64,000 bases of DNA. Source: Eledone cirrhosa. Its lineage: Eukaryota. Both the position numbers and the translations under genes were made by a program. The stretch is taken from positions 141,484,001 through 141,548,000 of the forward strand of contig OZ024742.1 in the NCBI GenBank assembly GCA_964016885.1, in the 5' to 3' direction. The notes below the pieces were generated by a model. That model worked only from the letters and a program-made list of their open reading frames with translations, made no database searches and was not told the origin of the DNA. Each line of letters starts with the position of its first letter. Position 1 is the stretch's first letter. Positions 1,650-64,000 of the stretch are shown here, piece by piece.

Positions 1650-4600
1650 TACCCACATTTAAAACTAATAAAAATCCCAATGAACCTCTACCAAAAACTA
1701 AAAAAGGATTTTAAGGAGGACGTAGGACCACCCTCTGTCAAACCCATAAACCGCGTCCTACTAAAAAGCTTTCCCCCTCCCCTTCCCCTCCCCAACACAA
1801 CTCCAAACACCCCAACCCCACCACACACCGACGACCCCACACCACCACAAGACACCCCTTCACCCAACACCCCCGACCCCATGGAAGTCGTGCAACCCGA
1901 ACCCCGGGAAGCGGAAAGGTAGGTCTCTACACTCTCCTTTGGCTCTGCCGCCCACATGGATGTGTTAAGAGTAGGATGTTTGAATGCACGTGGCCTGGGC
2001 TCAACTTGGAAGCAAGCAAAGCTTCTAAATGACCTCAGGTCATGTGGTATAAATGTAATGGTTATCTGTGAGACTCGAATCAGCGTCATGCGGCAGCTGG
2101 CCCCCACCTTCGATGACTTTGAGGTGCATGCATCTCTCTGTCAACCTGGAGGTGGGGGTGGGGTTGTCGTGCTGTTGCAAAAACACCTGGGTCTTGCCGT
2201 ACAGGTTGTGCACTCGGACCCGGAGGGTCGTTTGTTGGTGCTAGACGTTGGCAGTAGTGAAAGTGCGGCCTTGAGACTGGTCGCCGTCTACTCCCCTTTC
2301 GGAGCTGAACGGCCCGACTTCTTCCAGCGTTTGGAGACTTTTCTGGGAACGTCGCGTTCCCTGCTTCTAGCGGGGGATTGGAATGACATCCTGGATGCAC
2401 GTTGGGACTATGCAGGAGCATGTCCTAATAGAGGGGGTGTAACAGCCTCAAGGGGTTACTCGACCGTTTTAACTTGGTCGATAGATATCGACTAGATTTT
2501 CCAACTGTGCCTACCTGGACTTGGAGAAACCACAGTGGTCAATCTAGATCGTACTTAGATAGATTCTTAGTTAGAAGTAAGGATAGGGACATATTAAGCT
2601 GTCCAGAAATGCGCACGGTTGGCTACACGGATCACAAATTAGTGACCTGCGTGGTCAATCTCGAGAAAACACATAGACAGGGTCCCGGTTACTGGAAACT
2701 TAATTTGTCTTTACCGGCAAAAGAGACTTACAGAAACCGGATTAGCAGATTAGTTAAGGAGAGGTTGACGGGTGCAATCGTCAACAACCGATGGTGGGCA
2801 TCTCTCAAAAGAGAGATTAGAACAGAATCAATAAGTTATAGCAAGATGTTAGCTGCCAATAGGAATAGAAACGAGAAAGAATTAACAGGTAAATTAGAAG
2901 AGGCAATCAAGAGCGAAGATGTGGCCAGAGTGCTGGCATCGAGGACGGCCTTGAACCAGTTTTTCGATGCAAAGCATGAAGGCTGCGTCATTCGAAGTAA
3001 AATACGTGCTCTAGGTAATGAGGGGGCCAAAGCCGTTGGATGGGCCCGCGTGACAGAAGCTAAAAGTGGAAATCGATCCACCATCCGGTCGTTGCAAGAC
3101 GAAGATGGACGGGTGATCCGGGAGCCTAAGCAGATGTGCGAGGCCTTTCAAAAGCACTTTGCCCGATTGTTCGGGGGAGGCGAGGGTCCGGGCCGGGGCG
3201 TGGATTTCGGTCCATACCTCGACGGCCTGCCGCGTCTCTCGAACAAAGAGGCAGAGTCCTGCGAGGGACCAATCTCGGCTGATGAGATCGGAGATGCGCT
3301 GAGCCAATGCAGCAGACGCAAATCTCCAGGTCTCGATGGTATACCTTACGAACTTTATTTAGCAATGCCGGTCTTCTTCTCCGAACTCCTCGAAGCGGTC
3401 TACTGCAATTGGCAGCAGAACGGGAGAATTCCTTGTTCTGTAGCCAAGGGCGTAGTCACGCTGGTGAGGAAGGACGAGAACAAGGGGGATAGTATAAATA
3501 ATTTTCGGCCCATAACCCTGCTAAACACAGAGTTAAAGATTTTGGCCAAGGTGTTAGCAAAGAGGTTGGCGCTTGTCGTGGGTGGCCTGGTGGGAGATGC
3601 GCAGACATGTGCTATCCCATCCAGGTCCATTCACGATAACCTCCACCTCATGCGATACATCATAGAGAGGGTTGGCAACAAACCCGGCTTCGGTGGGGCC
3701 CTGATCAACTTGGATCAGTCTAAGGCCTTCGATAGGGTCGACCATGGTTACCTGGATGCGGTGCTAGCGGCGGCTGGGTTCGGTCCTGTTTTCAGAGGCT
3801 GGATCACCGCCCTACATAGCAACCACATCTGTTCTAGGATCAAGGTGAACGGCTACCTTTCGAAGCCGTTCGAAATCACACGATCCATTCGACAGGGGTG
3901 CCCTCTCTCCTCCCTTCTGTACGTATTGACTCTCGAGCCTTTACTGAGGAAGTTGGAGTTGTTGCAGGGTATCCCCCTGGAACCAGGATTGAGCAAAGCG
4001 GTGTCGGCCTACGCCGATGACGTAACAGTAATGGTATCAACCGACTCGGAGATCGAGGCGATCGGTACCTTACTGGAGGAGTACGAAAGGTTGTCAGGAG
4101 CGAAACTGAACCGGGAAAAATCCATCGGGCTGCAACTCGGAACGTGGAGAGGCAAACCGATGCCTCCTGACGGTGTCGTCGGACACTGGACGGAGGGCCC
4201 GGTAAAGTTGCTTGGGGTCTGGTTTGGACCGGACCTCCAGGTGGAAAAGAACTGGAACGAGGTTACGAACAAGGTGTTTGCACTAACCCAGAAATGGGCC
4301 AAGTGTAAGCTGTCCCTAAAAGGCCGGGCGGAGGTGGCGAACATTTACATAGCGTCCGTCACTTACTACCGCCTGACTGTCGTGCCTTGCCCTAAGGAAA
4401 CACTCACCACCATGGAACGCATGCTCTTCCAATTTCTTTGGAAGAAGCGTCCTCCTATGGTGAGAAGATCCATCTGCTGCCAACAACCTTCGAAAGGAGG
4501 GCTGGGGATGCCGTGGTTGATGATGCGTAGGCACGCATTAAGGCTACGGCACCTACAGGTATTCCTCACTGGTCAACCGGTGTGGGCTCCGTTCGTGAAA

Positions 4601-5610
4601 CGAGCCTTTCCGAGACTCGTCTCACTCACCGAGCTACAGTCCTGGGTCAAGCAAAGATCCGGAAAACTGGGAGACTGGCACACTGAGTGTGCTCAGGCGC
4701 TCAGGGCTCTCTGGCAAGCGGGCCGGGCTATCGGTGGAGAATCCACCTCATCATTCTATAGAGGGCTGGTGGCTAGCAGGGGCGATGACACCCTTGGAGA
4801 GTCGCTGGACATGGAAGAAGACGAACTGGCCAGCCTGTTCGGTAGGACTTTCGGCCCAGGACCAATGGACAACTTCCAGAAGTCACTGGCTTGGCAGTGC
4901 TACCGAGGGGCTCTACCCGTTTGAGAGAGGCTCTACAGACACGGGCGCCCGGGCAGGGATCCCTCAAAAAAGATTTGCCCTAGATGCGTGCGTCACGAAG
5001 AAACCGTAGCGCATGCATTGGTGCAATGTCCTGGCGTGGCTGATCTGTGGGGCTACGCCGAACAACTGCTGTCGCGGGTGGCGCCGATTAAATTGACCGC
5101 CGAGTCCGTGATGACAATCAAACCGCCTCCCCTCTTCACAAAGGAAGCAAAGGCGGTTTTTTCTGTGCGTAATAGCCATGTTGAAAGAGGTTGTTTGGTG
5201 GACACGATTGAAAGGTCTGAGGTCAGGCAACTTCCTCTCTGGCCATAGTCTGGTCTACTTCTTCCGATATCACTTCGGAAGAAGGATAAGAATGGAGAGA
5301 GAGGTGCTTGGCCACAGGCAGTTTTATGAAAGGTGGGTGATAGTGGCGAGAATGGCTCGTGTAAATGGGCCTTCTCTGTATACCATCATGTAGGTAAAGA
5401 AGTAAAGGAGAGGGGAGCACCTTCTCCATGTGCTCCCCGGGCAAAGGATTGCACACTTTTTCGGGGGTGTGTGCAACCCCCATCACGTCCCCTCCCTTTT
5501 GAGGTTATTTTCGATTATTTTCATGTTACACCCTTTTTACTCGATTATATGTAAACTCCCCCTTTGTATTTGTCCCTTCTTTTTATGCCTTTATGGTAAA
5601 TAAAGAAATC
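1650..5610 (+). mobile_element. Tx1/L1-clade LINE, copy 2: ORF1 C-terminus, APE endonuclease, RT and zinc finger; disrupted
   Basis: Pro/Thr-rich ORF1 tail ending at 1922. APE motifs LNARGL, ICETR, GDWN, YLDR and TDHK from 1956 with a frameshift near 2440-2475. RT motifs PGLDG, FRPITLLN, DQSKAFD, QGCPLS and YADD in 2474..4924. Stop at 4922 and frameshift near 5160. Ends AATAAAGAAA+(TCTA)n. Confidence 0.95.
1956..5393 (+). pseudogene. Tx1-type ORF2 (APE-RT-zinc finger) with two frameshifts and a premature stop
   Basis: ORFs 1956..2495, 2474..4924, 4988..5248 and 5178..5393 tile a single ORF2. Confidence 0.9.
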
Positions 5611-12457: not shown

Positions 12458-12624
12458 CGGCACGTGGCTGAGTGGTTAGAGAATAAGATTCGCAATCGTG
12501 AGGTTGTGTGTTCGATTCCCGGCAAAGCGTTGTGTCCTTCAGCAAGACACTTTGCTGTGAACAAATCACGTTGCTCCTTCTACCTGGAGTTGCGAGCGAT
12601 TTGATGAACCTCGATTGACTGTCG

Positions 12625-12654: not shown

Positions 12655-12659
<5 letters not shown>

Positions 12660-13248
12660 AATGGAAAAGAATGAAAGGAAATTTCATTTCTCACTCTTAG
12701 TACGGCTGATACTTAAATATAATTATGTATACGTACATACATATATGTATACAGATGTACAGTAGTATGTATATATATACATACATGCACACATATATAT
12801 GTACGTATGGCTTTACCGAACATTTGTAAACAAACAGCCCGAATTACGCCGTACAGTGTTCAGCAACCATCGTTGCCCTTTTGTTCAACACTGACAAAGG
12901 AACGATGAACTAGTTTCAAGCTTATTAGCTATCGTCAGCATCGTATACCTTCCTGTCAGATGATTGAACGTTTGAAAGTATATACTTTCCTTATGCATAT
13001 TAACGGCTGAGCAGCCTAATTTTCATATCGAGTGAGTTAGTCGGCCGGGCGTACCGAAAACGATAAATGGAAAAGAATGAAACGAAATTTCGTTTCGTTC
13101 CTTTGTCAGTGTTGAACAAAAGGGCAACGATGGTTGCCGAATACTGTACGGCGTAATTCGGGCTGTTTGTTTACGTACATATATATATGTGCATGTATCT
13201 ATATATATACATACTACTGTACGTCTGTATACATATATGTATGTACGT

Positions 13249-13260
<12 letters not shown>
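12655..13260 (-). mobile_element. Non-coding HHR-bearing retrozyme/pLTR-like element (about 406 nt period, terminally redundant) with an inverted arm at 13095..13255
   Basis: TAAATGGAAAAGAATGAAA.GAAATTTC.TTTC repeated at about 12658 and 13064. 13095..13255 is the reverse complement of about 12726..12904. Homologous to 35711..36216. Confidence 0.8.
12902..12944 (-). ncRNA. Minimal type I hammerhead ribozyme
   Basis: Minus strand: ACGATG-CTGACGA-T AGCT AATA AGCT T-GAAA-CTAG-TT-CATCGT. Helix I ACGATG/CATCGT, helix II AGCT/AGCT, palindromic helix III ACTAGT, GUU cleavage triplet. Confidence 0.82.
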
Positions 13261-13291: not shown

Positions 13292-13538
13292 CTTGACCGA
13301 CCTGTCTGTCGGGCGTCGATTCGGTCACAGCACGTCATGCTGTTTTAGCCATAAGATAACGCCATCCGACTGGGCGGGCAGGCCGGTACCTCTTCATCTC
13401 ATTTCTACAGGTGAGTAAACTGGAGCAACGTGAAATAAAGTGTCTTGCTCAAGGAAACAACACATCACCCGGTACAAGAATTGAACTCACAACCTTTCGA
13501 TTGCAAGCCCAATGCTCTAACCACTAAGCCATGCGCCT
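13290..13538 (-). mobile_element. tRNA-derived SINE, family B
   Basis: Reverse complement GGCGCATGGCTTAGTGGTTAGAGC...GAGTTCAATTC...CCTTGAGCAAGACACTT. Confidence 0.85.
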
Positions 13539-13575: not shown

Positions 13576-16500
13576 ATGAGACCAGAACGGATAGCTAGAA
13601 TACTACAACGTGTGCCTCTGGATGGAAATTCCTACATAAACATTTCTGTTGAGGGTAGGCGGCCTTCATGTGACCAGTGTTTAAGCAGTGGTCACATGAG
13701 GGCGTCCTGTCCTCAATTAACTGCATTAAAAAAAGGCATTACTGCCGACATCCAACACAACAACACAACCACCACCACCACCACAACAATAACAACAACA
13801 ACACACAAAAATAACAAAAACAAACCAAACTGCAAACACAGTCCCACCCAACCCCACTCCACCTAAAACCACTGCAAAATCCCATACAGACACAACAGCT
13901 CCCCAAGACATACCCCTCCCCAATCACACAGACGATACAACAGATGAGGCTATCTCGTCATCACCCAGTGAAGACGAGGGAGAACCCCATCGCTCGAAAA
14001 GAAAGAAAAGACACCACAAAAACAAAAAAAATCAGCAAACACTACCACAAATATACAACCACCAACACAAACAACAAAAACATCACAAACAAAACCCCCA
14101 CCTCCTGAAAACAAAATACCTACAACAAAACGAAAGCACACACAAGAACTACAGACAAAAACAAACACAACACAAGAAAATTACACTTACACATACATAA
14201 ACACTGAAAACAAAATACTAATGGAGACCATCACGAACAACCCTTCGGTTTTCACCGAAGGGAAAACTTTCGCCCACTCTATTAAAAATAACAAAAAACT
14301 GAACCTAAAACTGATTAGGGTCCCTATACAAACTTATAGGTCCCTAAAACAAACATTTGAAAATGATGTGGGGGAATTCCTGCGTGAAACCACTTAACCG
14401 CGTCTTTCTCAAATGTCTCCCCACCCAGACACCCCCACCCCAGATATCCCCTTCCCACCAGACACCCCCTCCCCGCCAACATCTCCGTCCCCACCCCGCC
14501 GGAAACCACCACCCACACAGACAACCCCTCCAACACCCCCATGGAAATCATGCAGCCTGGTTCCCAGGAGACGAAGGGTGAGTGATTTCTTTTTCTCCTC
14601 TTTTAACTTTTCAGAACCAACATGGCCAATATAAGAGTTGGATGTGTGAATGTACGCGGCCTGGGGATGCCCTGCAAACAGGGCAAACTCTTAAACGACC
14701 TCAGATCGCACAGTTTGGATGTAGTAGCCATTTCCGAGTCCAGGATCCACAGCGAGCGACATCTGGCCCCCATCTTCGACGACTTTGAGATCTACGCATC
14801 TGTCTGTCAGCCGGGAGGTGGGGCGGGGTTGCCGTTTTGCTGCGGAAACACCTGGACCTCGTAACACAGACGGTACATCTGGACCCGGATGGTCGACTGG
14901 TGGTCCTAGACGTTGACAGTAGTGAAAGTGGAGCCTTCAGGCTGGTGGCCGCATATGTCCCATCCGGGACGTCGCGGCCAGACTTTAGAAACTTTTCTGG
15001 GAACGTCCCGCTCCTTGCTTTTAGTGGGGGACTGGAATGGAATCCTAGATGCACGTTGGGACTATGTGGGAGCATGTCCCAATAGAGGGGTGTGTAACAG
15101 CCTCAAACAGTTAATCGGCCGATTTGACCTGGCCGATAGATATCGACTAGATTTTCCGATAGATATCGACTAGATAGGGTTCTAGTTAGAAATAAGGATA
15201 GGGACATGTTAAGCTGTTCACACATGTTCATGGTTGCCTATTCAGATCACAAACTAGTTACCTGTATGGTCAACCTTGATAGAACCCATAGACAAGGACC
15301 CGGCTACTGGAAGCTGAACTTGTCGTTACCGACAAGCAAAGCCTACAGTAGACGGATGAGCACTTTAGTTAGACAGCACTTAACAGGGGCCATTGTCAAC
15401 AACAGATGGTGGTACTCTCTCAAGAGGGCAGTTAGATTAGACTCGTTAGTTTTTAGTAAAGAATTAGCGTTAGATAGAAATAGGATCGAGAAGGAACCGG
15501 TAGATAAAGTAGAAGAGGCAATTAGTAGTGGCAACGTAGCCAGCGTGCTAGCAACGAGAGCGGCTTTGGACCAGTTCTTCGACGCAAAACACGAGGGCTG
15601 CGTTGTCAGAAGCAAAATACGTGCTCTGGGTAACGAGGGAGCCAAAGCTGTTAGCTGGGCCAGAGTAACGGAGGCGAAAAGTGGCAACAAGTCCACGATT
15701 CGGTCTTTGAAGGACCAAGACGGACGCGTGATACATAAGCTGAAGCAGATATGCGCGGCCTTTCAGCGGTACTTTGCTCAGCTGTTAGGGCAGGTCGGCG
15801 CTCTAGGAGGGGCTATGGATTTCGGTCCATACCTCGATGGCCTACCGCAATTCTCGGACAGCAAGGCGAAGTTCTGCGAAAAGCCGATTTCAGCCGCTGA
15901 GATAGGGGACACGCTGAGCCAATGCGGCAAACGCAAATCTCCAGGTCTCGACGGTCTACCCTACGAATTTTACGTAGCAATGCCGGACTTGTTCTCCGGT
16001 CTCCTGGAAGCGGTCTACTGCAACTGGCAGCAGAACGGGAGAATTCCCAGTTCTGTGACCAGGGGCTTAGTCACACTAGTCAGGAAGGACGAGAATAAGT
16101 GGGATGACATAGGCAACTTTCGGCCCATAACTCTGCTAAACACAGAGTTACAGATTTTAGCCAAGGTGTTGGCAAAGAGGCTGGCGCTTGTCGTCGAAAA
16201 CTTGGTGGGAGAAGCGCAGACATGCGCAATCCCGACCAGATCCATACACGACAACCTCCACCTCATGCGATACATCATAGAGATGGTAGGGTGTAAACCC
16301 GGCCTCGGTGGGGCCCTGATCATCTTGGATCAGTATAAGGCTTTCGATATGGTTGACCATCATTACCTGGATGCGGTGCTCGAGGCGGCAGGCTTCGGAC
16401 CCGTGTTGAGGGCCTGGATTGCTGCATTGCACAACAGCAACATCTGCTCAAGGGTCAAGGTGAACGGCTACCTCTCAGAGCCGTTCCATATCACGCGATC

Positions 16501-18238
16501 CATTCGACAGGGATGCCCTCTCTCCTCCCTTCTGTACTTACTGGCTCTCGAGCCATTACTGCGGAAGTTGGATCTATTGCAGGGCATCCTTCTGGAACCG
16601 GGACTGCGGAAAGCGGCGTCGGCCTACGCCGGGGACGTGACAGTAATGGTGTCGAGCACCTCGCAAATCGAGGAAGTTAGCACCTTACTGAAGGAATACG
16701 AAAGTTTCACAGGAGCGAAGCTGAACGGGGACAAGTCCATCGGTTTGCAACTCGGATCGTGGAGAGGCAAACCGATGCCTTCGGATGGCGTCGTCGGACG
16801 CTGGACGGAAGGACTGGTAAAGCTGCTCGGGGTCTGGTTTGGTCCGGACCTCCAGGTGGAGAAGAACTGGAACGAAGTGACGGCCAAGGTGTTTGCACTC
16901 ACCCAGAAGTGGGCCGAGTGCAAACTATACTTGAAAAGTCGAGCGGAGCTGGCGAACACTTTTATAGCGTCCGTCATCTACTACCGCTTGACCGTCGTGC
17001 CTTGTCCAGCCAAAACGCTCAGCAAAATGGAGTGCGCGCTTTTCCAATTCATTTGGAAGAAACGGGCTCCTTTGGTGAGAAGATCCATCTGCTGCCAATA
17101 CCCTTCAAACGGAGGGCTGGGGATGCCGTGGTTGACGATGCGCAAACACGCGCTCAGGCTTCGGCATCTCTACGTATTCCTCACCGGACAACCGGTGTGG
17201 GCCCCGTTCGTGAGGTGGGCCTTCCCACGACTCGTCTCGCTGACCGAGCTGCAGTCCTGGGTCAAGCAAAGACCGAGGAAAATGGGCAACTGGCACATCG
17301 AATGTGCTCAGGCGCTCACAGCCCTCTGGCAGGCAGACCAGGCGATCAGTGGAGACTCCACTTCGTCATTCTATAGAGGGTTGGTCCGCAGCAAGTCCGA
17401 CGACGCGCTCGGAGAAACTCTGGGCGTAGAGGAAGACGAACTGGCCAGTCTGTTCAGTAGAACCTTCCGCCCGGGACCGATGGAAATTTCCAAAAATCCC
17501 TGGCCTGGCAGTGCTACCGAGGAGCTCTACCAGTTCGAGACAAGCTCTATAGACACGGGCACCTGGACAGGGACACTTCGTAAAAGATCTCTTCGAGATG
17601 CGTGCGCGACGAGGAAACCGTCGCGTACGCATTTGTACACTGCCCGGGCGTTACCGACCTGTGGGGATATGTAGAACGACTATTGTCGCGGGTGGGACCA
17701 ATCCAGTTGACCACCGAGTCCATTGTCATAATCAAACCGCCACCCTCCTTCAAAAACGAAGGAGAGGCGGTTTTCCTTTGTGTGATAGCTATGGCGAAAG
17801 AGGTTGTATGGTGGACGAGGTTAAAAGGGCTGAGGTCAGACACCTTTCTCTCCGGCCAACAACTGATTCTTTTTTTCAAATACCACTTTGGAAGAAGAAT
17901 CAGGATGGAGAGAGAGGTGCTGTACCCCAGCAAGTTTTATGAAAGGTGGGTGAAAGTGGCGAGAATGGCCCGAGTGAATGGGCCTTCTCTCTATATCAGC
18001 CTGTAGGTTGAGGAAAAGGAGGAGGAGAGGAAAGGAGTACAAACTCTTCGTACTCCTGGAGATGAGGGTTGCACATTTTTTCGGGGGTATGTGTTACCCA
18101 TATGAACTGTCTCCCCCCATTGGGGAAAATCGATTAACTTTTAAATTACATTTGTGATAATATTTTACGTTTTTATTGTATGTAAACTTCCCCCTTTGTA
18201 TTTGTCCCCTTCTTTTGTGCCCCTGTGGCTAATAAAGA

Positions 18239-19659: not shown

Positions 19660-20475
19660 ATGTATTGACTGATCGGTTGGCTCATTCAAATGCACCTCTC
19701 CAACTGATCCGGCTGGATTCCCTAGCGAGACCAGCCAAATTCATGAATGATATCCAACCATCTTGTTTGGGATCTATTCCTGGGTCTTCTGTCGGTTGGT
19801 TTTTGCCCATAAAATCTGTCCAGCGATTCGTTCCTGGGACATTCTTACCACATGCCCATATTAGCAGTACTACCTCAATTCGGAGAAGTAGCGGCACGAC
19901 CTGGAGTGACTCTCCGATCTCCGAGCTACGCACTCTATCGAGTAACGTTACTTCAAAGACCCTTCGGAGGAACTCCATTGGTCGCTTGTATTCACGATCG
20001 TATTCTTTCGATCATTACCCAATATTCATTACCATCGGTAAGGTTTGGCACAAATCGAAGATAGTGAGTTTGGCTTTTACACCTACATCCCTTCTTATGA
20101 TTAGTGAATGCTGAAGCTGGCGCATTACTGCAATTATTGCACTTAATTCAGCCTCCTGCCTTCCACCACTCGTGAACACGGCCCCGAGATACTTGAACTT
20201 CTCTACCTGTTTCAGTGGAAATCCATTCACATGTAGAGTGCACTGTGCAAGCTTCCTTGAGAGGACGAGTGTCTCAGTCTTTGCAGCACAGATTTTCATT
20301 CCAGTGGTGCAGTACTCGGCATCTATCCTATCGAGTGTAAGTCGGTGATTACCTGTCGAGTTAAGTAACACCATGTTTTCTGCAAATTCCAGCCAACTGA
20401 TTTTACATCTGCCAGTCATGATACCACTTCCAGCCCGGCTGTGCATGTCTATCCTATTCATGTGAATATTGAACA
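19660..20475 (-). mobile_element. RTE-clade LINE 3' fragment (degenerate)
   Basis: FAENMVLL...GMKICAAKTETLV...QVEKFKYLG and EFLRRVFEVTLLDRVRSSEI are typical RTE RT C-terminal sequence. Confidence 0.8.
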
Positions 20476-20604
20476 CGAAGTTATTAAAAATCATAATCGT
20501 TTTATTGGCTCTTTTGAATTTAATGCGAAAACCATTTTCTTTGGAAAGTAAAGACATAGCATCGTAATTTCAGGAGAAAGTGACTGCGAGAGATGGCATA
20601 CGAT

Positions 20605-27899: not shown

Positions 27900-30800
27900 T
27901 CGTCTACAGCGTGATAGTGCCACGCTAAAATCACCGGGGGTGATCAAATCACTGGGGGGTGATGAAATCACCGGTGGTTATGTAACCATACATTCACCAA
28001 TCCTCGATATGAGCGTTTAAATGTCGAACCTAAACAGTTCGAATAACGGTGAAGTGGAGACTGGAATGACATGTGACAGACTCTCCCCCAGCAGGTGCTC
28101 CCTGGCCCAGCAGCAGGGATCTGGCTGTCATCCAAATACTGCTGGTGTTGGAGGAAGAAGAAGAAGGAAAGGGACCAGAAGCAACTGGAAGAAAGAATTG
28201 AATATAACTGTTATGCAATGTTACCTGAAGAGTAACCCCAAGGAAAAGGGCTATAGGAAACGGTTGCATAACATCTGGAACGAGATTGGTCTATTTAAAT
28301 TAGATGAACAAAAATTGGCCGGGTAGGCTCGGGTAATAAGAACTAATGGGTGGATAAGCGAGCTGGAACTGGAGGAACTCAGCAGAGATATTAGATTGGA
28401 AATGGAGAGTGGAGTATGCCAGGAAAACGAGCCAGTAAGAGATGAAGGTGGAGAAGAGGTTGAGAGAACGGAGGAAGTATCCGAAGCAGACAATGATCTG
28501 AATGCTGAAATAAATAATACCTGGAACAAAGATACGGCCATTGAGGAAATGAATGCTGACGGGCTAGGACAAGATTTTGTTGATATCCTAAACTTAGTGG
28601 TAGATGAAATGAACAATGATAGTGGGAAACCTATGAACCTAAGATTTGTAGACAGGAAAAAGTTAAAAGAAACAACAGCTAAGGTAAACAAAGTCATCCC
28701 ATACCTTGAGGCGAGGACCCTTCACCAGTGCAACAATATCCTCAAAGCAACAGCAAATGCGGTGAGGAAATTACTTGGCATAAAAGCGAGAGGAAACAAC
28801 AAACAAGAAAGATCAGAACCTTGGTGGAAGAAACGACTGAATGGTCAAATCAGGGAAATGAGAAATGACATTGGAAAGCTTGAGTCCTTACTGAATGGGA
28901 CACTACAAAACATAGACACTAAAAATAGACTGGAAATAAAGTACAAAACTAGGAGGAAAAAGTTAAATATTATCATAGAGGCACTGAAGCAACGCATTGT
29001 AGCAAAGAGCGCAAAGATTAGGCGATACGAGAGCAGAGTCAGTCAGTAGAGAGAGAACCGCATGTTTGACAACAACCAGAGGATGTTGTTTGGACAGCTT
29101 GAAGGGAAATAAAGAGGCAACGACTTGATCCCTGAGGCGGAACACACTAAGACATTCTGGAGAGGAATATGGGAGCAGGATGTTGAACATAATAATCAGG
29201 CAGTGTGGATTGAGACAGTACAAAAGGAGATTAGTGAACAGGCACACCAACAAACTGATTTGAGTATCACAGTTGAAACTCTTAAGGGGCAGGCCAGAAA
29301 ACTAACCAACTGGAAATCACCAGGCCCAGATGGTGTGCAGGGGTATTGGATTAAAAATATAACATCCCTCCACCCGAAACTGACAACCATGTTCAATGAC
29401 TGCTTGATGTCAGGTGAGGTACCAGAGTGGTTGACAAAAGGTACCACAGTTCTGGTAATGAAAGACCGAATCAAGGGTAATGATGTTACCAACTATAGAC
29501 CTATCATTGTGTCTGAGGAAATCTACCATCCCCTCTACATAAACAACTTGTTACCGGACGAACAGAAAGGATGCCGAAAGAAGTCCCGTGGTACAAAGGA
29601 CCAGTTACTTATTGATAAGATGGTAATGAGGAATTGCAGGAGGAGACACACTGGTCTTGCCATGGGATGGATAGACTACAAAAAGGCATTCGACATGGTA
29701 CCTCATTCTTGGATAACCAAAAGCCTAGAGATCTTCAAGGTGGCAGATAACATCAGACAGTTGTTGAGCAAAAGTATGAAGTCCTGGGAGGCGTGAGGAT
29801 CAAGAGAGGGATCTTCCAGGAAGATAGTTTGTCCCCTCTGTTGTTTGTCCTTGCCCTGATCCCTCTGACCATTATACTGCGAAAAGTGAGAGCAGGATAC
29901 AAGTTGGGAAAGGGAGAGCTTATCATCAATCACCTCCTCTTCATGGACGATCTTAAGCTCTTCGGGAAGAGTGAGAAGGAGTTGGATGTGCTTGTTGACA
30001 CTGTCCGTATTTTTAGCAATGATATATGTATGCAATTTGGTGTTAGTAAGTGTGGAGTCCTTGTGATGAAGAGGGGTAAATTGAGCAGAAGCAACGGAAT
30101 CCAGGTACCAACAGGTGAGATGATAAAGGAAATTGATACTGAAGAAGGATACAAATATTTAGGCGTACTGGAGGCTGATGACATCAAGAACAAAAAAATG
30201 AAGGAATTGATAAGATCTGAATACATTCGGAGAATAAGGAGCGTATTAAAGTCACATCTGAACAGTAGGAATGCCATAAGTGCAGTAAATTCCCGAGCTG
30301 TGTCTATTATTAGGTACAGTGCGGGAATTCTGAGAATGGAATGTTGCTGAACAAAAAGAAATGGATAGGAAGACTAGGAAGCTATTGACTATCTACAACA
30401 TGTTCCACAAAAGGAGTGATGTCGATAGACTCTACTTAAGGAGATCTGAAGGTGGAAGAGGTCTTATCAGCATAGAGGACTCTGTTCAGATGGAGAAAAA
30501 CAACCTACACAAATATGTGACTGATAGTAGGGAGCCAATGCTCACAATTGTACTGAAGTAGAGGACAATAGACCAGGGGATGTCCAAGGAGGAAATAACA
30601 ACAAGGAGAAAGAGCAACCTTCATGAAAAATCCCTTCATAGTGCCTTCTTTGAGAAAACTGAAGTTAGAGATCCACAGACATGGAACTGGTTGAAAAGAT
30701 GAGACCTTAAAAAGGCTACAGAAGGAATGCTAATGGCTGCGCAAGAGCAGGCCCTGAAAACGAAGTGGCTGAAACACCATATTTACAAGGAGGAGGCTAT

Positions 30801-34122: not shown

Positions 34123-35710
34123 AACAATAATGACCGATTATCAACACTGATTAATCAGCAAAAAAGCTGATACCGATTAATCAACAAAAATAGCCAATAT
34201 GGCTAATACCGATTATCTGCCGATTAATTGGTGCAACCCTAATCCGTAGATATATGAAAATACGCATCTATCTATCTGTATATCTTTTTACTATTTCTGT
34301 ATTTACTTGTGCTCGTGAATTGTTTCGACCTAGTCATATTCCCAGAAATACTGAACCAGAAAATTCTATTGTGCTTTGTATTTATTTTACTTTCTGTATT
34401 TCCATTTTAATACAAAATATTAGTGTTTGTGTTATTGCTGATGTGGATGTTGTTTAGCCCAAGATAAGCTTTCATTGAGCAAACTTATGATTAAAAGCAT
34501 TTCAACCATGTCTTTCGGCGTCCCAAAATACAAGTTCTAGTCTAAGGATATGGATTAGCAGAATTGTTAGTACATCGGATGAGTCACCTTATGCTACTTC
34601 TTCCGGCTAGTTGCAATATGAGTACTTGCGTGGTAGATTTAAACCGTCACCCGGTTGAACACAAATAGCTGGTCATTGGGCGATTTTAACTGAGTTCATT
34701 CTTTTACGAGAATTCGGGCCAAGTTTCCCGTTTGAGCATAATTTCCTTCCTTCCTCTTATCAGTCCTCGAAAGCCTTAAAGAAAAAAAAAAAAAATAAAG
34801 GGCCCCGAAAGGAAAAGGAGATTACATTCAGTCACAAAGGAAAGCAGGAAGTTGGCAGAAGAATTGGGAATAGAGTTTAAAAATGATGGCGATTGCCATT
34901 TTTTCTTTCTGATTCAGCAGTAAAAAACTAATTTACGAAAGACCGGTGTTTACCACTCAGCATCAGTCTTATTAATAGCGTCACATAGGGTGGTGGGTGG
35001 AAGTATCGTTAGTGGATCGGAGGAGACTGCTGAATATTAATATGCTAGCGTTGGTGTTCCTGTTTATGAAGACGAAGATATTTCAGCGCTTGTCATTTTC
35101 AAACTGTAGTCATTTTTCTAACAGCAATATACTTCAACCGCCTACACAACTGCCTGAGGAATTCTATTATAAATGGTAATTGCAAATTTTTTAATAGCTA
35201 TGGTGTTCTAAAATGTGCTAGGAAAAAAAATGTCTAAAAAACCTGACGGCCCAGTTGAGGTTGGCTGGTCACATGAGATGGCTTTTGAATGATATTCAAC
35301 ATTTCTAATATCCGAAGAAACTGAACTGTCAAACTTTGTGAAGAGAAGTGAGATGGGACAGTGTTTGTGAAGAAAGGTCTTGTCTATACATAATTATATA
35401 TATTTGTTGTTTCTGAAGGCGTAATGTATGCACACGCATTTATGAATAATAATTACAAGCTTACACATACACACCCAATACACACATATATACACACTAA
35501 ATCGCACACATGTGTGTGAGTATGTGTGTTTGTTTGTGTGTGTGAGTGCGTGCGCGCACTGGATTACAAATTTGTATTTACAACATACGATTTTTGTAAA
35601 TTCATTGCGTGAGTAGATAGCAACCAAGCTTGACGGATTGCAAAGGTATAGCTTCGTTAAACTTAATTGTTCTCTCTCTCTAGGAGACAGGACCCATGTA
35701 CTAGTTTCAC

Positions 35711-36216
35711 TTAAGTAAGTGCCGTACTAAGAGTGAGAAATGAAATTTCGTTTCATTCTATTCCATTTATCGTTTTCAGTGCGCCCAGCCGATATGCAAA
35801 CTCACTCGATATGCAAATTGGGCTGCTCAGCCGTTAATATGCATAAGGAAAGTATATACTTTCAGACGTTCAACCATCTGGCAGGAAGGTATACGATGCT
35901 GACGATAGCTAATAAGCTTGAAACTAGTACATCGTTCCTGTGTCAGTGTTGAACAAAAAGGTGACGTGGTTGCCTAAACACTGTACGGCGTAATTCGGGC
36001 TGTTTGTTTGTTTACTAAACAAACAAACCGAGCATTATAATAAATGTTCGGTAAACTGATACGTGCATATATATATATATGTGTGCATGTATGTATATAT
36101 ATACATACTACTGTACGTCTGTATACATATATGTATGTACGTATACATACTTACCTTTAAGTAACTGCCGTACTAAGAGTGAGAAATGAGATTTCGTTTC
36201 ATTCTATTCCATTTAT
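35711..36216 (+). mobile_element. HHR-bearing retrozyme-like monomer, 446 nt period with 60 bp terminal redundancy
   Basis: TTAAGTAA.TGCCGTACTAAGAGTGAGAAATGA.ATTTCGTTTCATTCTATTCCATTTAT at 35711..35770 and 36157..36216; homologous to 12655..13096. Confidence 0.82.
35893..35935 (+). ncRNA. Minimal type I hammerhead ribozyme
   Basis: ACGATG-CTGACGA-TAGCTAATAAGCTT-GAAA-CTAG-TA-CATCGT; GUA cleavage triplet; palindromic helix III. Confidence 0.83.
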
Positions 36217-36240
36217 ATATATATATATATATATATATAT

Positions 36241-36458
36241 CGACAGTCGATCGATTTTCGTCAAATCGGATCGAGGAAACAATGTTTCCGTTGGTCTCTC
36301 CAATTGCTAATACTATCTATCTGTCGCAACTCCAGGTAGACGGAGCAACGCGAAATAAAGTGTCTTGCTCAAGGACATAACGCATCGCGCCGTCCAGGAA
36401 TCGAACTCACAACCTCACGATTGCGAATCCAATTCTCTTACCACTCAGCCACACGCAT
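36241..36458 (-). mobile_element. tRNA-derived SINE, family B
   Basis: Reverse complement TGGCTGAGTGG...GAGTTCGATTCC...GTCCTTGAGCAAGACACTT...GACTGTCGA. Confidence 0.85.
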
Positions 36459-36694
36459 TAACACAAGTACAGAGTTATTCTCGCGATATTCTCATGTTTC
36501 TAAGTAGCTTTTAAGGAACTGGTCTCTTTAATATTGATTTATATCTTTCTTAATCAATCGATCTCTTTCGAATCCCCTCATAATTATTAACGTTTTTCTT
36601 TTGTCAAATTGTCTCCTCTAAACCATTTAGATTATCTGCTCTTGGTTTTGGGGCTCTTCTCTATTTCACTGTTCTGTTTTTCTCTTTTGAGCAA

Positions 36695-61189: not shown

Positions 61190-64000
61190 ATGTATGTATG
61201 TATGTATGTATGTATGTATGTATGTATGTATGTATGTATGTATGTATGTATGTATGTATGTTCTTCTGGTTTTATAATTTCACAAAGTTTTACCAATAGA
61301 AAGAGAGTCGGTTTCTCACATAGACACAAGACTCTCTCATTGGATTTTACACAACATCAACTAGGTAGATATGTATGTATGCATGCATGTGTAGATATGG
61401 ATGTTATTGTATGTGTGGATGTGTATGTTTTGAGTTGTATGTGTGCATGTGTATATGCTTTGTATCTGTACATATGTATATGCAGTTATTAGATGCAACA
61501 TTTTTGGAATGTTTTACATATTTTTACTGTTCCATTAATGGATTGTACTTGTAGTTTCCTAACTAGTTGTGTTCTTTCTGTTCCTGTGAAGCCTAGCTTC
61601 TCAAGATTTGTATTGAGGCAGTTACTAACATATCCCAGTGCCCCAATAATCACAGGCATAAATCTGAAGGTGTAATCAGAGTGGAGTATCTGCAGATTTC
61701 TCATGAGTTCTGCATAAATATTCTCCTTTTCACTAATCTTTGATATTATATTGGCGTCTGCTGGGCAGCTAATTTCCACTACTGTGCATGTTTTCTTCTC
61801 CCTGTCCCATATCATAATATCTGGTCTGTTATGCCTGCATTTTATTGGGGTTCTTACTGGAACATTTCAGCAGTACTCTTTCATATTATGTACATGGATG
61901 TCTTCCACATTGTTGTAGCTTTTAATGTGTTTATTATCGGGGCTATCTTTTTTACGAACTTCATTGTACAGTGTTTTGGCCACTACATCATGCCTCATAG
62001 GTAGATAGTACCGCGATGACATCTTTGGACAGCTGCTGATGACATGGGTGATAACCTCGATGTTAGTTCTGCAGAGTCTGCACTTGTTATCACATCTAGG
62101 TATTTTGCCTGCATCCCTATCTCTTTTGTGAATCAGGTATTTCGTGCTAATCTCCTGTTCCTGGATTGCAAAAGCTTATCCTTCAAAGTGGGAGCCAATA
62201 TAGCGGTTGTTGGTCGAAGATAGACTACTTTCCTTATCTATATTACTCTCACTCTGGAGCTTCCTGGCAACATACCCATGCATGATTTTTTGCTGATAGG
62301 CATGCAGTTTTTCATCCATGGATTCACTGCGATACTGCTGAGCGACATCCCTGGGTGTGAGTTTTTGATTATCACACAGGGAATATCTCGCAAGGAGTTC
62401 CTTCCCAACTCTCATGATCTTATCTGTTTCATGCAGATAGACTTGCTCGAGAAGCGGGCTCCTACGCTTCGAGGTTCGTAGATGTTGTCGGAGAAATATG
62501 ATGCGACATTCAAATGTTGTCTGGACTGATGTTAGTCCTCTGCCTCCCTGCTTACGTTTCAAGTAAAGGCGGTCTATGTCACTGTTGATGTGGAAGTTTC
62601 CGGTGTTGTTCAATATTTTTCGAGTTCCAACATCAACTGCTCGGATTTCGTCTATCGTCCAATTGAGTATTCCAAACGTTTGATGTTAGGACAGGCACAG
62701 CAAACACATTGTGAGCCACTGTTTTGTTTTGCGCAGAGAGTTCCGATGACCAGATCTTTCTTAATCGGGTGTAGTATTCCCTGGTTATGCGTTCTTTATT
62801 ACAGATACCATTATAGCATATGTTCTCATCTATCCCCAGGTATCTGTAGCAGTCCTCACCAGATATCGGTGAAACAGTTAGACCATTGATGACAATGTTG
62901 CTAGATTGGGTTGTTGTTTTTCCCCGCTTTACAGTCATGTATGAGCATTTATCTTAGCCAAACTCCATTCCTATATCCTTTGAGAACGTTGTAACCAGGT
63001 CAAGATTTTTCTTCATCCCATCCATGTTCTTGGCATAGAGTTTCAACTCGTCCACAAAGAAGTTATGGGTTAGGTTCGTATTTCTGTCCTCCTGTGAGCC
63101 AATGATGTATCTCTCACATTTCTTGAGCAGAAAGGACAAGGGGTTTAATGACAAGATGAACAATATCACTGAGAGACTGTCCCCCTGAAATATACACCTG
63201 CAATATTTTATTTTATCAGTGAAAATAGAGTCCCCCTCTCTGTTTTTAACCTTAGGATAGTAGCCCAAGAAGAAGACAGCCTCTCTATGGCTCTGACAAT
63301 AATGTCTGGGACTTTAGCAAGTTGGAAGGCTTCTATCATCCAAGCGTGGGGAACAGAATCGAAAGCTTTCCTGTAGTCCAGCCAGACTGTAGTCATATTC
63401 CTCCTAAGTTGTCGCACCTCCGACATCGCAGTTTTGTTGATTAGAAGTTGTTCAGAACATCCCCAAACCCTTTTCTTTCCAGCTGCTTGTTCATATGTGA
63501 TGATGTTATTATTCTCACAGTGATCTTGGAGGAATAGGTTCAGGCAGGCTGTATACATCTTATACATCAGGTTCTGGCATGCAATTGGTCGGTATTTTTT
63601 TGCCAAGTGGGTGTCTTTGTTCTTGGGGACCAGTAACGTTTGTGCTAATGTCAACCATTCTGGTATAAGTGTATATCCCTTAAGAACATGTTGGTAGAGG
63701 TCAGTAAGATACCTCCGATAGAATATTAGTTTTTTGTACCAGTAGCCAACAATCATGTCTCTTCCTGGTGTTTTCTGATCTTGGAGTTTTCCTATCACAG
63801 TCTCAAGGGTACCCTCACTTATTTCGTATGTTTTTTGTTGTAGTGTAGGGGCAATAGTTCTTTCGGATTTCTCTTAGCCGCACTGCATCTTGGTTGAAAT
63901 TCTTCTTTTCATCCCATATTTTGCTCCAAAAGTAATCTATATCTGGGATGGGGCCTCAGTGACACTTATTATTTTGCCCTTTATATCTCTATAGGCTGAT
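61190..64000 (-). mobile_element. R4/Dong-like RLE non-LTR retrotransposon (continues beyond the window), degenerate, with (CATA)n tail
   Basis: TPGRD, YRPIAC, LDYRKAFDSVPH, IFQGDSLS, FFVDE, YRYLG, DIDRLYLKRKQGGRG, CRLC...THVISSC, RHDVVAK and RPDI...VEISCP...KENIY; 3' UTR ends at (TATG)n 61191..61260. Confidence 0.92.

What the first reader, a model, noticed from the sequence alone, without database searches (positions are those of the whole stretch)
35711..36216. Retrozyme-like monomer: 446 nt unit, one HHR, 60 bp terminal redundancy, no ORF
Seen: the unit starts and ends with the same 60 bp, and the HHR lies internally (35893..35935) rather than at an end. The second copy at 12.7 kb is also terminally redundant, and its HHR differs only at the cleavage nucleotide (GUA versus GUU, both NUH-compatible). 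Inference: reverse transcription slightly more than once around a circular or multimeric RNA, as proposed for metazoan non-LTR retrozymes.
Basis: partly seen in the sequence, partly recalled or inferred. Interest (0 to 1): 0.75.

Follow-up and report, generated by a model that had tools for sequence, protein, structure and literature searches.

The report
Penelope-copied hammerhead RNA circle family
This is one ordinary copy of a non-coding repeat that carries a predicted self-cutting RNA motif and occurs tens of thousands of times in this animal genome, and the ends and RNA-editing scars of its sister copies show that one RNA molecule, likely a circle, was copied more than once round, likely by the enzyme of a Penelope-type jumping gene.

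Summary
Observation confirmed: 446-nt unit, type I hammerhead at 35893-35935, 58 of 60 redundant bases. The redundancy is not a designed terminus. 5' ends vary freely; 3' ends fall at two fixed sites about 63 nt apart and join microsatellite, mostly (TA)n. Of 52 classifiable head-to-head pairs, 45 have one end of each kind, the 'tail' signature of Penelope-like elements (PLEs). Autonomous zinc-finger-linker PLEs in this genome leave the same pattern. The hammerhead occurs 23,686 times exactly; none of 223 arms adjoins a PLE ORF. Rare copies carry sense-strand A-to-G clusters shared within an insertion (38 of 46 sites) but not between insertions (61 of 429). One arm repeats the same 14 changes on two successive turns, so one RNA was copied repeatedly, most simply a circle. 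Limits: no RNA data, cleavage untested, partner PLE unproven, and this copy's two ends differ at a subfamily-linked base. Verdict: new member of the metazoan non-LTR retrozymes, with strong genomic evidence for the proposed route. This scan noted related retrozyme arrays (467/468, 422 and 310 nt) on other DNA of this genome before.

The parts
35711..36216 (+). One arm of 506 nt (1.13 units): variable 5' end, fixed tail-bearing 3' end
35711..36156 (+).
35893..35935 (+). Type I hammerhead motif; predicted cleavage after 35929 (GUA); palindromic loop III, predicted to need a dimer
   Evidence: architecture as in PMC4209133 passages
35881..35941 (+). Predicted extension of stem I with an internal loop on its 5' side
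   Evidence: prediction only
35811..35818 (+). Octamer ATGCAAAT, possible promoter element (role recalled from snRNA-type promoters, not tested)
   Evidence: sequence; mean conservation 0.98 over unit 93-104 against 0.91-0.97 in other regions
36050..36153 (+). Microsatellite-like, self-complementary part of the unit, ending at the tail-less 3' site used by the opposite arm in other copies
36154..36216 (+). 63-nt 'tail' between the two fixed 3' ends (inferred pair of internal reverse-transcription start sites)
36214..36240 (.). (TA)n target microsatellite
35684..35709 (-). 26-nt inverted scrap of the 3' half of the hammerhead at the 5' junction; weak match, possibly a remnant second arm
   Evidence: 23 of 26, E=0.003
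12657..13096 (-). Second insertion, tail-bearing arm (unit 27-446, then 1-60), other subfamily, about 85% identical
12902..12944 (-). Hammerhead of the second insertion (GUU)
13095..13255 (+). Second insertion, tail-less inverted arm (unit 222-299, deletion, 360-439) ending in (TA)n

Best explanation
The stretch is one 5'-truncated arm of a high-copy, ORF-less hammerhead repeat whose RNA, likely a monomer circle, is likely reverse-transcribed in trans by a Penelope-like element protein. Steps: (1) Tandem or read-through copies are transcribed on the hammerhead strand (shown indirectly: sense-strand A-to-G clusters). (2) Neighbouring hammerheads would pair through palindromic loop III and cut out monomers, which a ligase would close (inferred from the architecture and from other animals). 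(3) A zinc-finger-linker PLE protein would nick both strands of a (TA)n tract and prime twice inside the RNA, at two sites about 63 nt apart (two fixed ends shown; enzyme inferred from published in vitro work on another PLE). (4) Each cDNA runs back through the uncut cleavage site for a variable length, sometimes more than one turn; the two are joined head to head with 0-8 nt of overlap (shown). (5) Both arms usually come from the same RNA (shown for edited copies), sometimes from two. The 60-nt redundancy is a by-product of step 4. Best partner candidate: the young PLE family of L081, whose tail is 66 nt (inferred, about even odds).
For: Copy number: 23,686 exact hammerhead matches, reversed control 0; 6 insertions in 40 random 10-kb stretches, about 45,000 per genome, 95% range 16,000-98,000. 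Ribozyme: 87 of 104 copies keep the core; the most variable stem I pair stays paired in 99 of 104 (A-U 77, G-U 13, U-G 7, U-A 1, C-G 1). Ends: of 223 arms, 104 end at unit 38-63 (97 beside microsatellite) and 82 near 410-446 (70 beside microsatellite); 45 of 52 classifiable inverted pairs have one of each, 14 further pairs were unclassifiable. Same pattern in autonomous PLEs here: 4 of 4 inverted pairs of the L084 family; tails 66, 48, 39 and 38 nt in four families against a mode of 63-64 for this unit. Long RT plus GIY-YIG ORFs with a CxxxxCxxC linker. PMC11167929 (part 1 of 4 and passages): a PLE protein cuts and extends both strands and starts at two internal sites that bound the tail. Template: 212 segments span the cut site and 5' ends are not enriched there (5 against 2.4 expected, P=0.10). 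Tandem units share rare variants in 10 of 28 arms against 1-2 of 22 matched controls. Editing: A>G 214 against T>C 160; neighbour bias 5' U 0.19, A 0.15, C 0.06, G 0.04; shared sites 38 of 46 within insertions against 61 of 429 between. In L236 the same 14 changes recur on both turns and 13 of them in the opposite arm. The two L196 arms are circular permutations with shared edits and no close sibling among the 40 best matches. Double-change pattern: 7 of 7 sense hits carry further A>G, 0 of 3 antisense hits carry further T>C.
Against: No transcript, circle or cleavage was observed. The ribozyme has two weak features (U-U at the base of stem II, one-pair stem III) and a GUA or GUU triplet; the 2026 preprint saw cleavage in 1 of 9 Xenopus dimers. 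No convincing nucleotide homology to the terminal repeats of four sampled PLE families, so the partner rests on tail length and target alone. The window copy's redundant ends differ at a subfamily-linked base, and two inverted pairs are clear subfamily chimeras (L009 15 of 32 diagnostic sites, L014 14 of 27). Arrays also grow at DNA level (L275 two-unit duplication, L265 70-bp minisatellite), so array identity alone proves nothing. Edited loci are few, were found by pattern or similarity, and the 13 within-insertion pairs were chosen by hand; one pair (L269) shared 0 of 3. Eleven of the 14 L236 sites lie where family polymorphism was not filtered. The A>G excess comes largely from one locus. 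Most loci were BLAST top hits, so young copies are over-represented.
Confidence: 0.8

Rival explanations
1. PLE-mobilised, but the template is a linear monomer that the reverse transcriptase re-enters by precise jumps from its 5' end to its own 3' end; no covalent circle is needed.
For: It explains identical edits on successive turns equally well. Chimeric arms show that template changes occur. Five 5' ends lie at unit 215-219, beside the cut site.
Against: That excess is not significant (P=0.10). Circles are the reported form in coral, mussel and axolotl (PMC7229834 parts 2-4).
Confidence: 0.12
2. The template is an uncut linear multimer read from a genomic array; the hammerhead is dispensable or vestigial.
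For: Young near-identical arrays exist (0-3 differences per unit). Heavily edited copies with a broken core were still inserted. HHR cleavage was not needed for PLE insertion in vitro (PMC11167929 passage). It would explain the window copy's mismatched ends.
Against: Independent units should not carry the same stochastic edits, yet they do (14 of 14 in L236), while different insertions share only 14%. No edited source locus was seen for L196. Core and stem I pairing are kept across subfamilies 12-19% diverged.
Confidence: 0.1
3. The copies are ordinary truncated terminal repeats (pLTRs) of an autonomous PLE that was not sampled.
For: Same insertion pattern as autonomous PLEs; the L084 family carries a hammerhead of the same build in its terminal repeat.
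Against: No arm of 223 adjoins PLE coding sequence. Upstream of unit position 1 lies position 446, not an ORF end. Only 45 GIY-YIG loci out of 10,595 candidates were inspected, so an ancestral pLTR origin is not excluded.
Confidence: 0.04
4. Satellite DNA or a LINE-mobilised SINE with a chance hammerhead-like motif.
For: Local DNA amplification occurs; the window holds long LINE-like RT ORFs.
Against: Two fixed 3' ends, one per arm; no poly(A) tail; no tRNA-like head in the unit; dispersed copies; strand-specific editing; pairing-preserving variation.
Confidence: 0.02

Closest known systems
Metazoan non-LTR retrozymes (Cervera and de la Pena 2020, PMC7229834, parts 2-4 of 6 read, supplement unreadable; review PMC7761336, passages)
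   Same: Non-coding unit of a few hundred bases, GC under 50%, one type I hammerhead per unit, tandem copies, predicted self-paired circle, co-occurring PLEs. U-U at the base of helix II as in axolotl HHR_Amex2; one-pair palindromic helix III as in HHR_Amex1.
   Different: Circular RNA and cleavage not shown here. Mostly dispersed 0.1-3-unit arms. The parts read describe no two-armed, tail-bearing, (TA)n-targeted insertions and no editing scars, and propose PLE mobilisation only from co-occurrence.
Animal retrozymes as non-autonomous PLE sequences (Li, Clavereau, Pollet 2026, 10.64898/2026.07.22.740005, parts 1-3 of 5 read, supplements closed)
   Same: Same conclusion on the helper; monomers dispersed, multimers rarer.
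   Different: Their evidence is co-distribution and pLTR homology in Xenopus, and their species list names no mollusc. Here no pLTR homology was found; the evidence is insertion structure and editing barcodes.
EN+ Penelope-like elements, Neptune/Nematis type (Craig et al. 2021, 10.1101/2021.04.23.441226, passages; Frangieh et al. 2024, PMC11167929, part 1 of 4 and passages)
   Same: Partial tandems, inverted 5'-truncated arm, tail on one end only, microsatellite bias, two internal start sites.
   Different: No ORF; tail about 63 nt against the 30-40 nt reported; the unit is closed on itself.
Non-autonomous Chlamys elements such as MRC1 (Craig et al. 2021, passage)
   Same: Non-coding, head-to-tail copies moved by a PLE.
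   Different: Those generally resemble the helper's 3' end, and most Chlamys lack hammerheads.

Membership tests
Metazoan non-LTR retrozyme | Type I hammerhead in each unit | tested here: met
   matched by descriptor and variation pattern, not by Rfam
Metazoan non-LTR retrozyme | Small (150-450 bp) non-coding unit, GC under 50%, no LTR, PBS or PPT | tested here: met
   446 nt, sister units about 422-510 nt; longest ATG ORF 70 aa; no tRNA gene; redundancy variable, so not an LTR; PBS and PPT not searched for separately
Metazoan non-LTR retrozyme | Head-to-tail tandem copies | tested here: met
Metazoan non-LTR retrozyme | Highly self-paired predicted circle | tested here: met
   circular fold z -7.2 (inflated by the microsatellite part); unique part z -3.7 and -5.4
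Metazoan non-LTR retrozyme | Self-cleavage in vitro | not testable with these tools
   needs a transcription assay
Metazoan non-LTR retrozyme | Expressed as circular RNA | tested here: inconclusive
   indirect support from editing barcodes; no direct RNA evidence available
Metazoan non-LTR retrozyme | Target-site duplication | tested here: inconclusive
   ends lie in microsatellite, where a duplication cannot be discerned
PLE-type insertion | Inverted 5'-truncated arm with a tail on one end only | tested here: met
   45 of 52 classifiable pairs
PLE-type insertion | Microsatellite target as for zinc-finger-linker PLEs | tested here: met
   97 of 104 and 70 of 82 ends
Autonomous PLE or its pLTR | Adjoining RT plus GIY-YIG ORF | tested here: not met
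   0 of 223 arms adjoin one; 3 lie 0.8-1.3 kb downstream of one
Non-autonomous derivative of a named PLE family | Sequence homology to the helper's terminal repeat | tested here: not met
   four families tested; best sense-strand score reached by 13 of 200 shuffles; two 15-17-nt antisense matches reached by 2 and 7 of 200, in ten comparisons; other families unsampled

The most novel reading that the evidence does not exclude
The genome keeps a single-molecule record of retrozyme transposition. A PLE protein, possibly a dimer, primes twice 63 nt apart on one covalently closed, ADAR-edited hammerhead RNA circle and rolls round it from both sides of a (TA)n break, without needing sequence homology to the helper's terminal repeat. 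A-to-I edits act as natural barcodes for the template.
Probability: 0.62. Interest if true: 0.8.

Novelty: new member of a known kind. Interest (0 to 1): 0.62.

Why it matters
Rolling-circle copying of retrozyme RNA by a Penelope-like element is proposed in the papers read here but not shown, and the PLE insertion mechanism is only partly worked out. This family gives a defined RNA, two mapped start sites, a known target, long-ORF candidate helpers in the same genome and natural barcodes, so both questions become directly testable. It also shows that A-to-I editing can be written back into the genome through such an RNA. The window copy itself is an unremarkable member.

Tried and rejected
60-nt redundancy as an LTR or fixed terminal repeat: rejected; tail-ended arms run from 37 to 1,440 nt. 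Cleaved linear monomer as the usual 5' boundary: no significant excess of ends at the cut site; no peak of mutation-rate change at the cut site, though subfamily clustering was coarse. Inversion junctions at bases paired in the predicted fold: 1 of 23 against 6% by chance. Upstream 35559-35668 as a second hammerhead family: it is an unrelated older repeat. Likeness of the tail end to the L081 family's end: reached by 33 of 200 shuffles. Expression: no RNA holder listed, which is no evidence either way; runs of unknown kind gave contigs only, and two runs of other organisms held the unit at depth under 35, not used. Rfam: no hammerhead family matched. Literature: searches listed no paper describing this family, octopus retrozymes or edited genomic retrozyme copies; subscription journals and Repbase are not covered, and the unread supplements of PMC7229834 and of the 2026 preprint could bear on this. 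The promoter role of the octamer is recalled and was not found in the passages read. The host group was not tested; earlier notes of the scan call it cephalopod.

Full report
Observation. The stretch 35711-36216 is a 446-nt unit plus 60 nt, the two ends matching at 58 of 60 bases. A type I hammerhead motif lies at 35893-35935, with the predicted cut after 35929; it occurs twice in the window and not in shuffles. Rfam does not recognise it. The build (6-bp helix I, 4-bp helix II, short palindromic helix III) is the canonical metazoan type described in PMC4209133 (passages), which is reported to cleave as a dimer. There is no ORF over 70 aa. The copy at 12.7 kb is 85% identical, redundant by 34 nt, and is one arm of an inverted pair.

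A large family. The window lies in a 3.0-Gb genome. A 34-nt hammerhead pattern has 23,686 exact matches and its reversed control none. Forty random 10-kb stretches held 6 insertions, about 45,000 per genome, 95% range 16,000-98,000. Subfamilies differ by roughly 7-19% and have units of about 422-510 nt. Of 104 sampled hammerheads 87 keep the core; variation falls mainly on position 7, loop II, the cleavage base (A 60, U 43, C 1) and one stem I pair that stays paired in 99 of 104. GUA against GUU is thus a subfamily trait; GUA is found in natural hammerheads (PMC1636495, abstract).

The redundancy is not a terminus. In 223 arms from loci found mostly as BLAST top hits, 5' ends are spread along the unit, while 3' ends fall in two classes: 104 at unit 38-63 (71 of 104 at position 60) and 82 near 410-446, nearly all beside microsatellite. 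Of 66 head-to-head pairs, 14 had an unclassifiable end; of the other 52, 45 had one end of each class, 2 had two tails and 5 none. Tail-ended arms range from 37 to 1,440 nt; the window arm is 506.

This is the PLE signature. Craig et al. (passages) describe partial tandems, an inverted 5'-truncated arm, a tail on one end and microsatellite bias linked to a zinc-finger linker. Frangieh et al. (part 1 of 4 and passages) show that a PLE protein cuts and extends both strands and starts at two internal RNA sites that bound the tail, a signature they call unique to PLEs. This genome has 10,595 GIY-YIG candidates; 45 loci were inspected, including RT plus GIY-YIG frames of 844-1,096 aa stop to stop with a CxxxxCxxC linker. 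Their own insertions show the same two ends in (TA)n, with tails of 66, 48, 39 and 38 nt against a mode of 63-64 for the unit. No arm adjoins a PLE ORF and no convincing homology to four terminal repeats was found. The unit is therefore read as non-autonomous; the L081 family is the best candidate helper by tail length only.

What was the template? cDNAs run through the cut site 212 times, and 5' ends there are not significantly enriched (5 against 2.4, P=0.10). Tandem units share rare variants in 10 of 28 arms and inverted arms in 6 of 32, against 0-2 of 21-22 matched pairs from other loci. Pattern and similarity searches found more such loci. Edited sites prefer a 5' U or A and avoid a 5' G, as I recall for ADAR enzymes. 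Thirteen hand-picked within-insertion pairs share 38 of 46 sites; ten segments from different insertions share 61 of 429; the two sites fixed in the patterns and polymorphic sites were left out. All 7 sense double-change hits carry further A>G, none of 3 antisense hits further T>C. In L236 one arm covers unit 292-446 twice with the same 14 changes, 13 of them also in the opposite arm; 3 of the 14 were filtered for polymorphism. In L196 the two arms are circular permutations with shared edits and no close sibling was found. One RNA was thus copied more than once round and from both sides. A covalent circle is the simplest reading; precise re-entry on a linear monomer is not excluded.

Against and limits. 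No RNA or cleavage data. The window copy's ends differ at position 9, where the two alleles mark subfamilies and 41 of 44 same-arm neighbours agree, so this copy may be a template switch, a mixed multimer or a mutation. Two inverted pairs are subfamily chimeras. DNA-level duplication also builds arrays (L275, L265). The ribozyme looks weak, and only 1 of 9 Xenopus dimers cleaved in the 2026 preprint.

Comparison and novelty. The unit meets the testable features of metazoan non-LTR retrozymes (PMC7229834, parts 2-4), whose mobilisation by PLEs is proposed there and argued from co-distribution and pLTR homology in the 2026 preprint (parts 1-3). It is a new member of a known kind. What goes beyond the text read is the insertion structure and the barcode evidence; nine searches listed no paper reporting these, within the limits of the library and of unread supplements. 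Earlier notes of this scan describe two-armed retrozyme arrays elsewhere in this genome. The 468-nt array at the place of one of them is 88% identical to this unit, so it is the same superfamily. My data favour an uncut or resealed template over that note's 'cut RNA units'.

Noticed in passing
L081, L099, L098 terminal repeats: Three autonomous PLE families carry hammerhead-like motifs with a U3-A8-type or further changed core and a palindromic CCGG loop III; the U3-A8 variant is described in PMC4209133 (passage).
   Followed up: partly
L084, L085, L088, L094, L096, L147, L165, L219: PLE family whose terminal-repeat hammerhead has the same build as the unit's (U-U at the base of stem II, palindromic 4-nt loop III) without sequence homology; short ORF-less inverted pairs of it are common.
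   Followed up: partly
L131-L170 (random 400 kb): 25 raw hammerhead-descriptor hits from several distinct families against 0 in the reversed control; the genome is very rich in hammerheads.
   Followed up: no
window 35559-35668 (minus strand); L032-L055: Older unrelated repeat that often begins at a microsatellite; two copies about 600-800 nt apart in some loci.
   Followed up: partly
L265:1602-3030: 70-bp minisatellite of at least 20 copies grown from unit 226-298 of an edited insertion.
   Followed up: no
L275:642-2473: Array alternating two unit types (17 differences); the fifth, partial unit breaks the pattern, which points to DNA-level duplication of a dimer or an assembly effect.
   Followed up: partly
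L273:430-6185: Two-armed array of 467-nt period with only distant likeness (65%) to unit 27-145, next to a 468-nt array of this family.
   Followed up: no
L133, L134: Both insertions border the same unrelated repeat across the (TA)n tract; another family that begins at (TA)n.
   Followed up: no
window 1923-4924, 15140-17674, 28327-30350, 62176-63873, 20015-20569: Long or broken LINE-like reverse-transcriptase frames (clade labels not tested); none has a GIY-YIG domain by eye.
   Followed up: no
window 12460-12600, 13390-13531, 36330-36460: SINE-like repeats beside both insertions; one scores as tRNA-like in Rfam (13474-13531, E=0.006).
   Followed up: no
L008 and L108: The same inversion junction (unit 270 and 11, 7-nt complementary overlap) recurs in two subfamilies.
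   Followed up: partly
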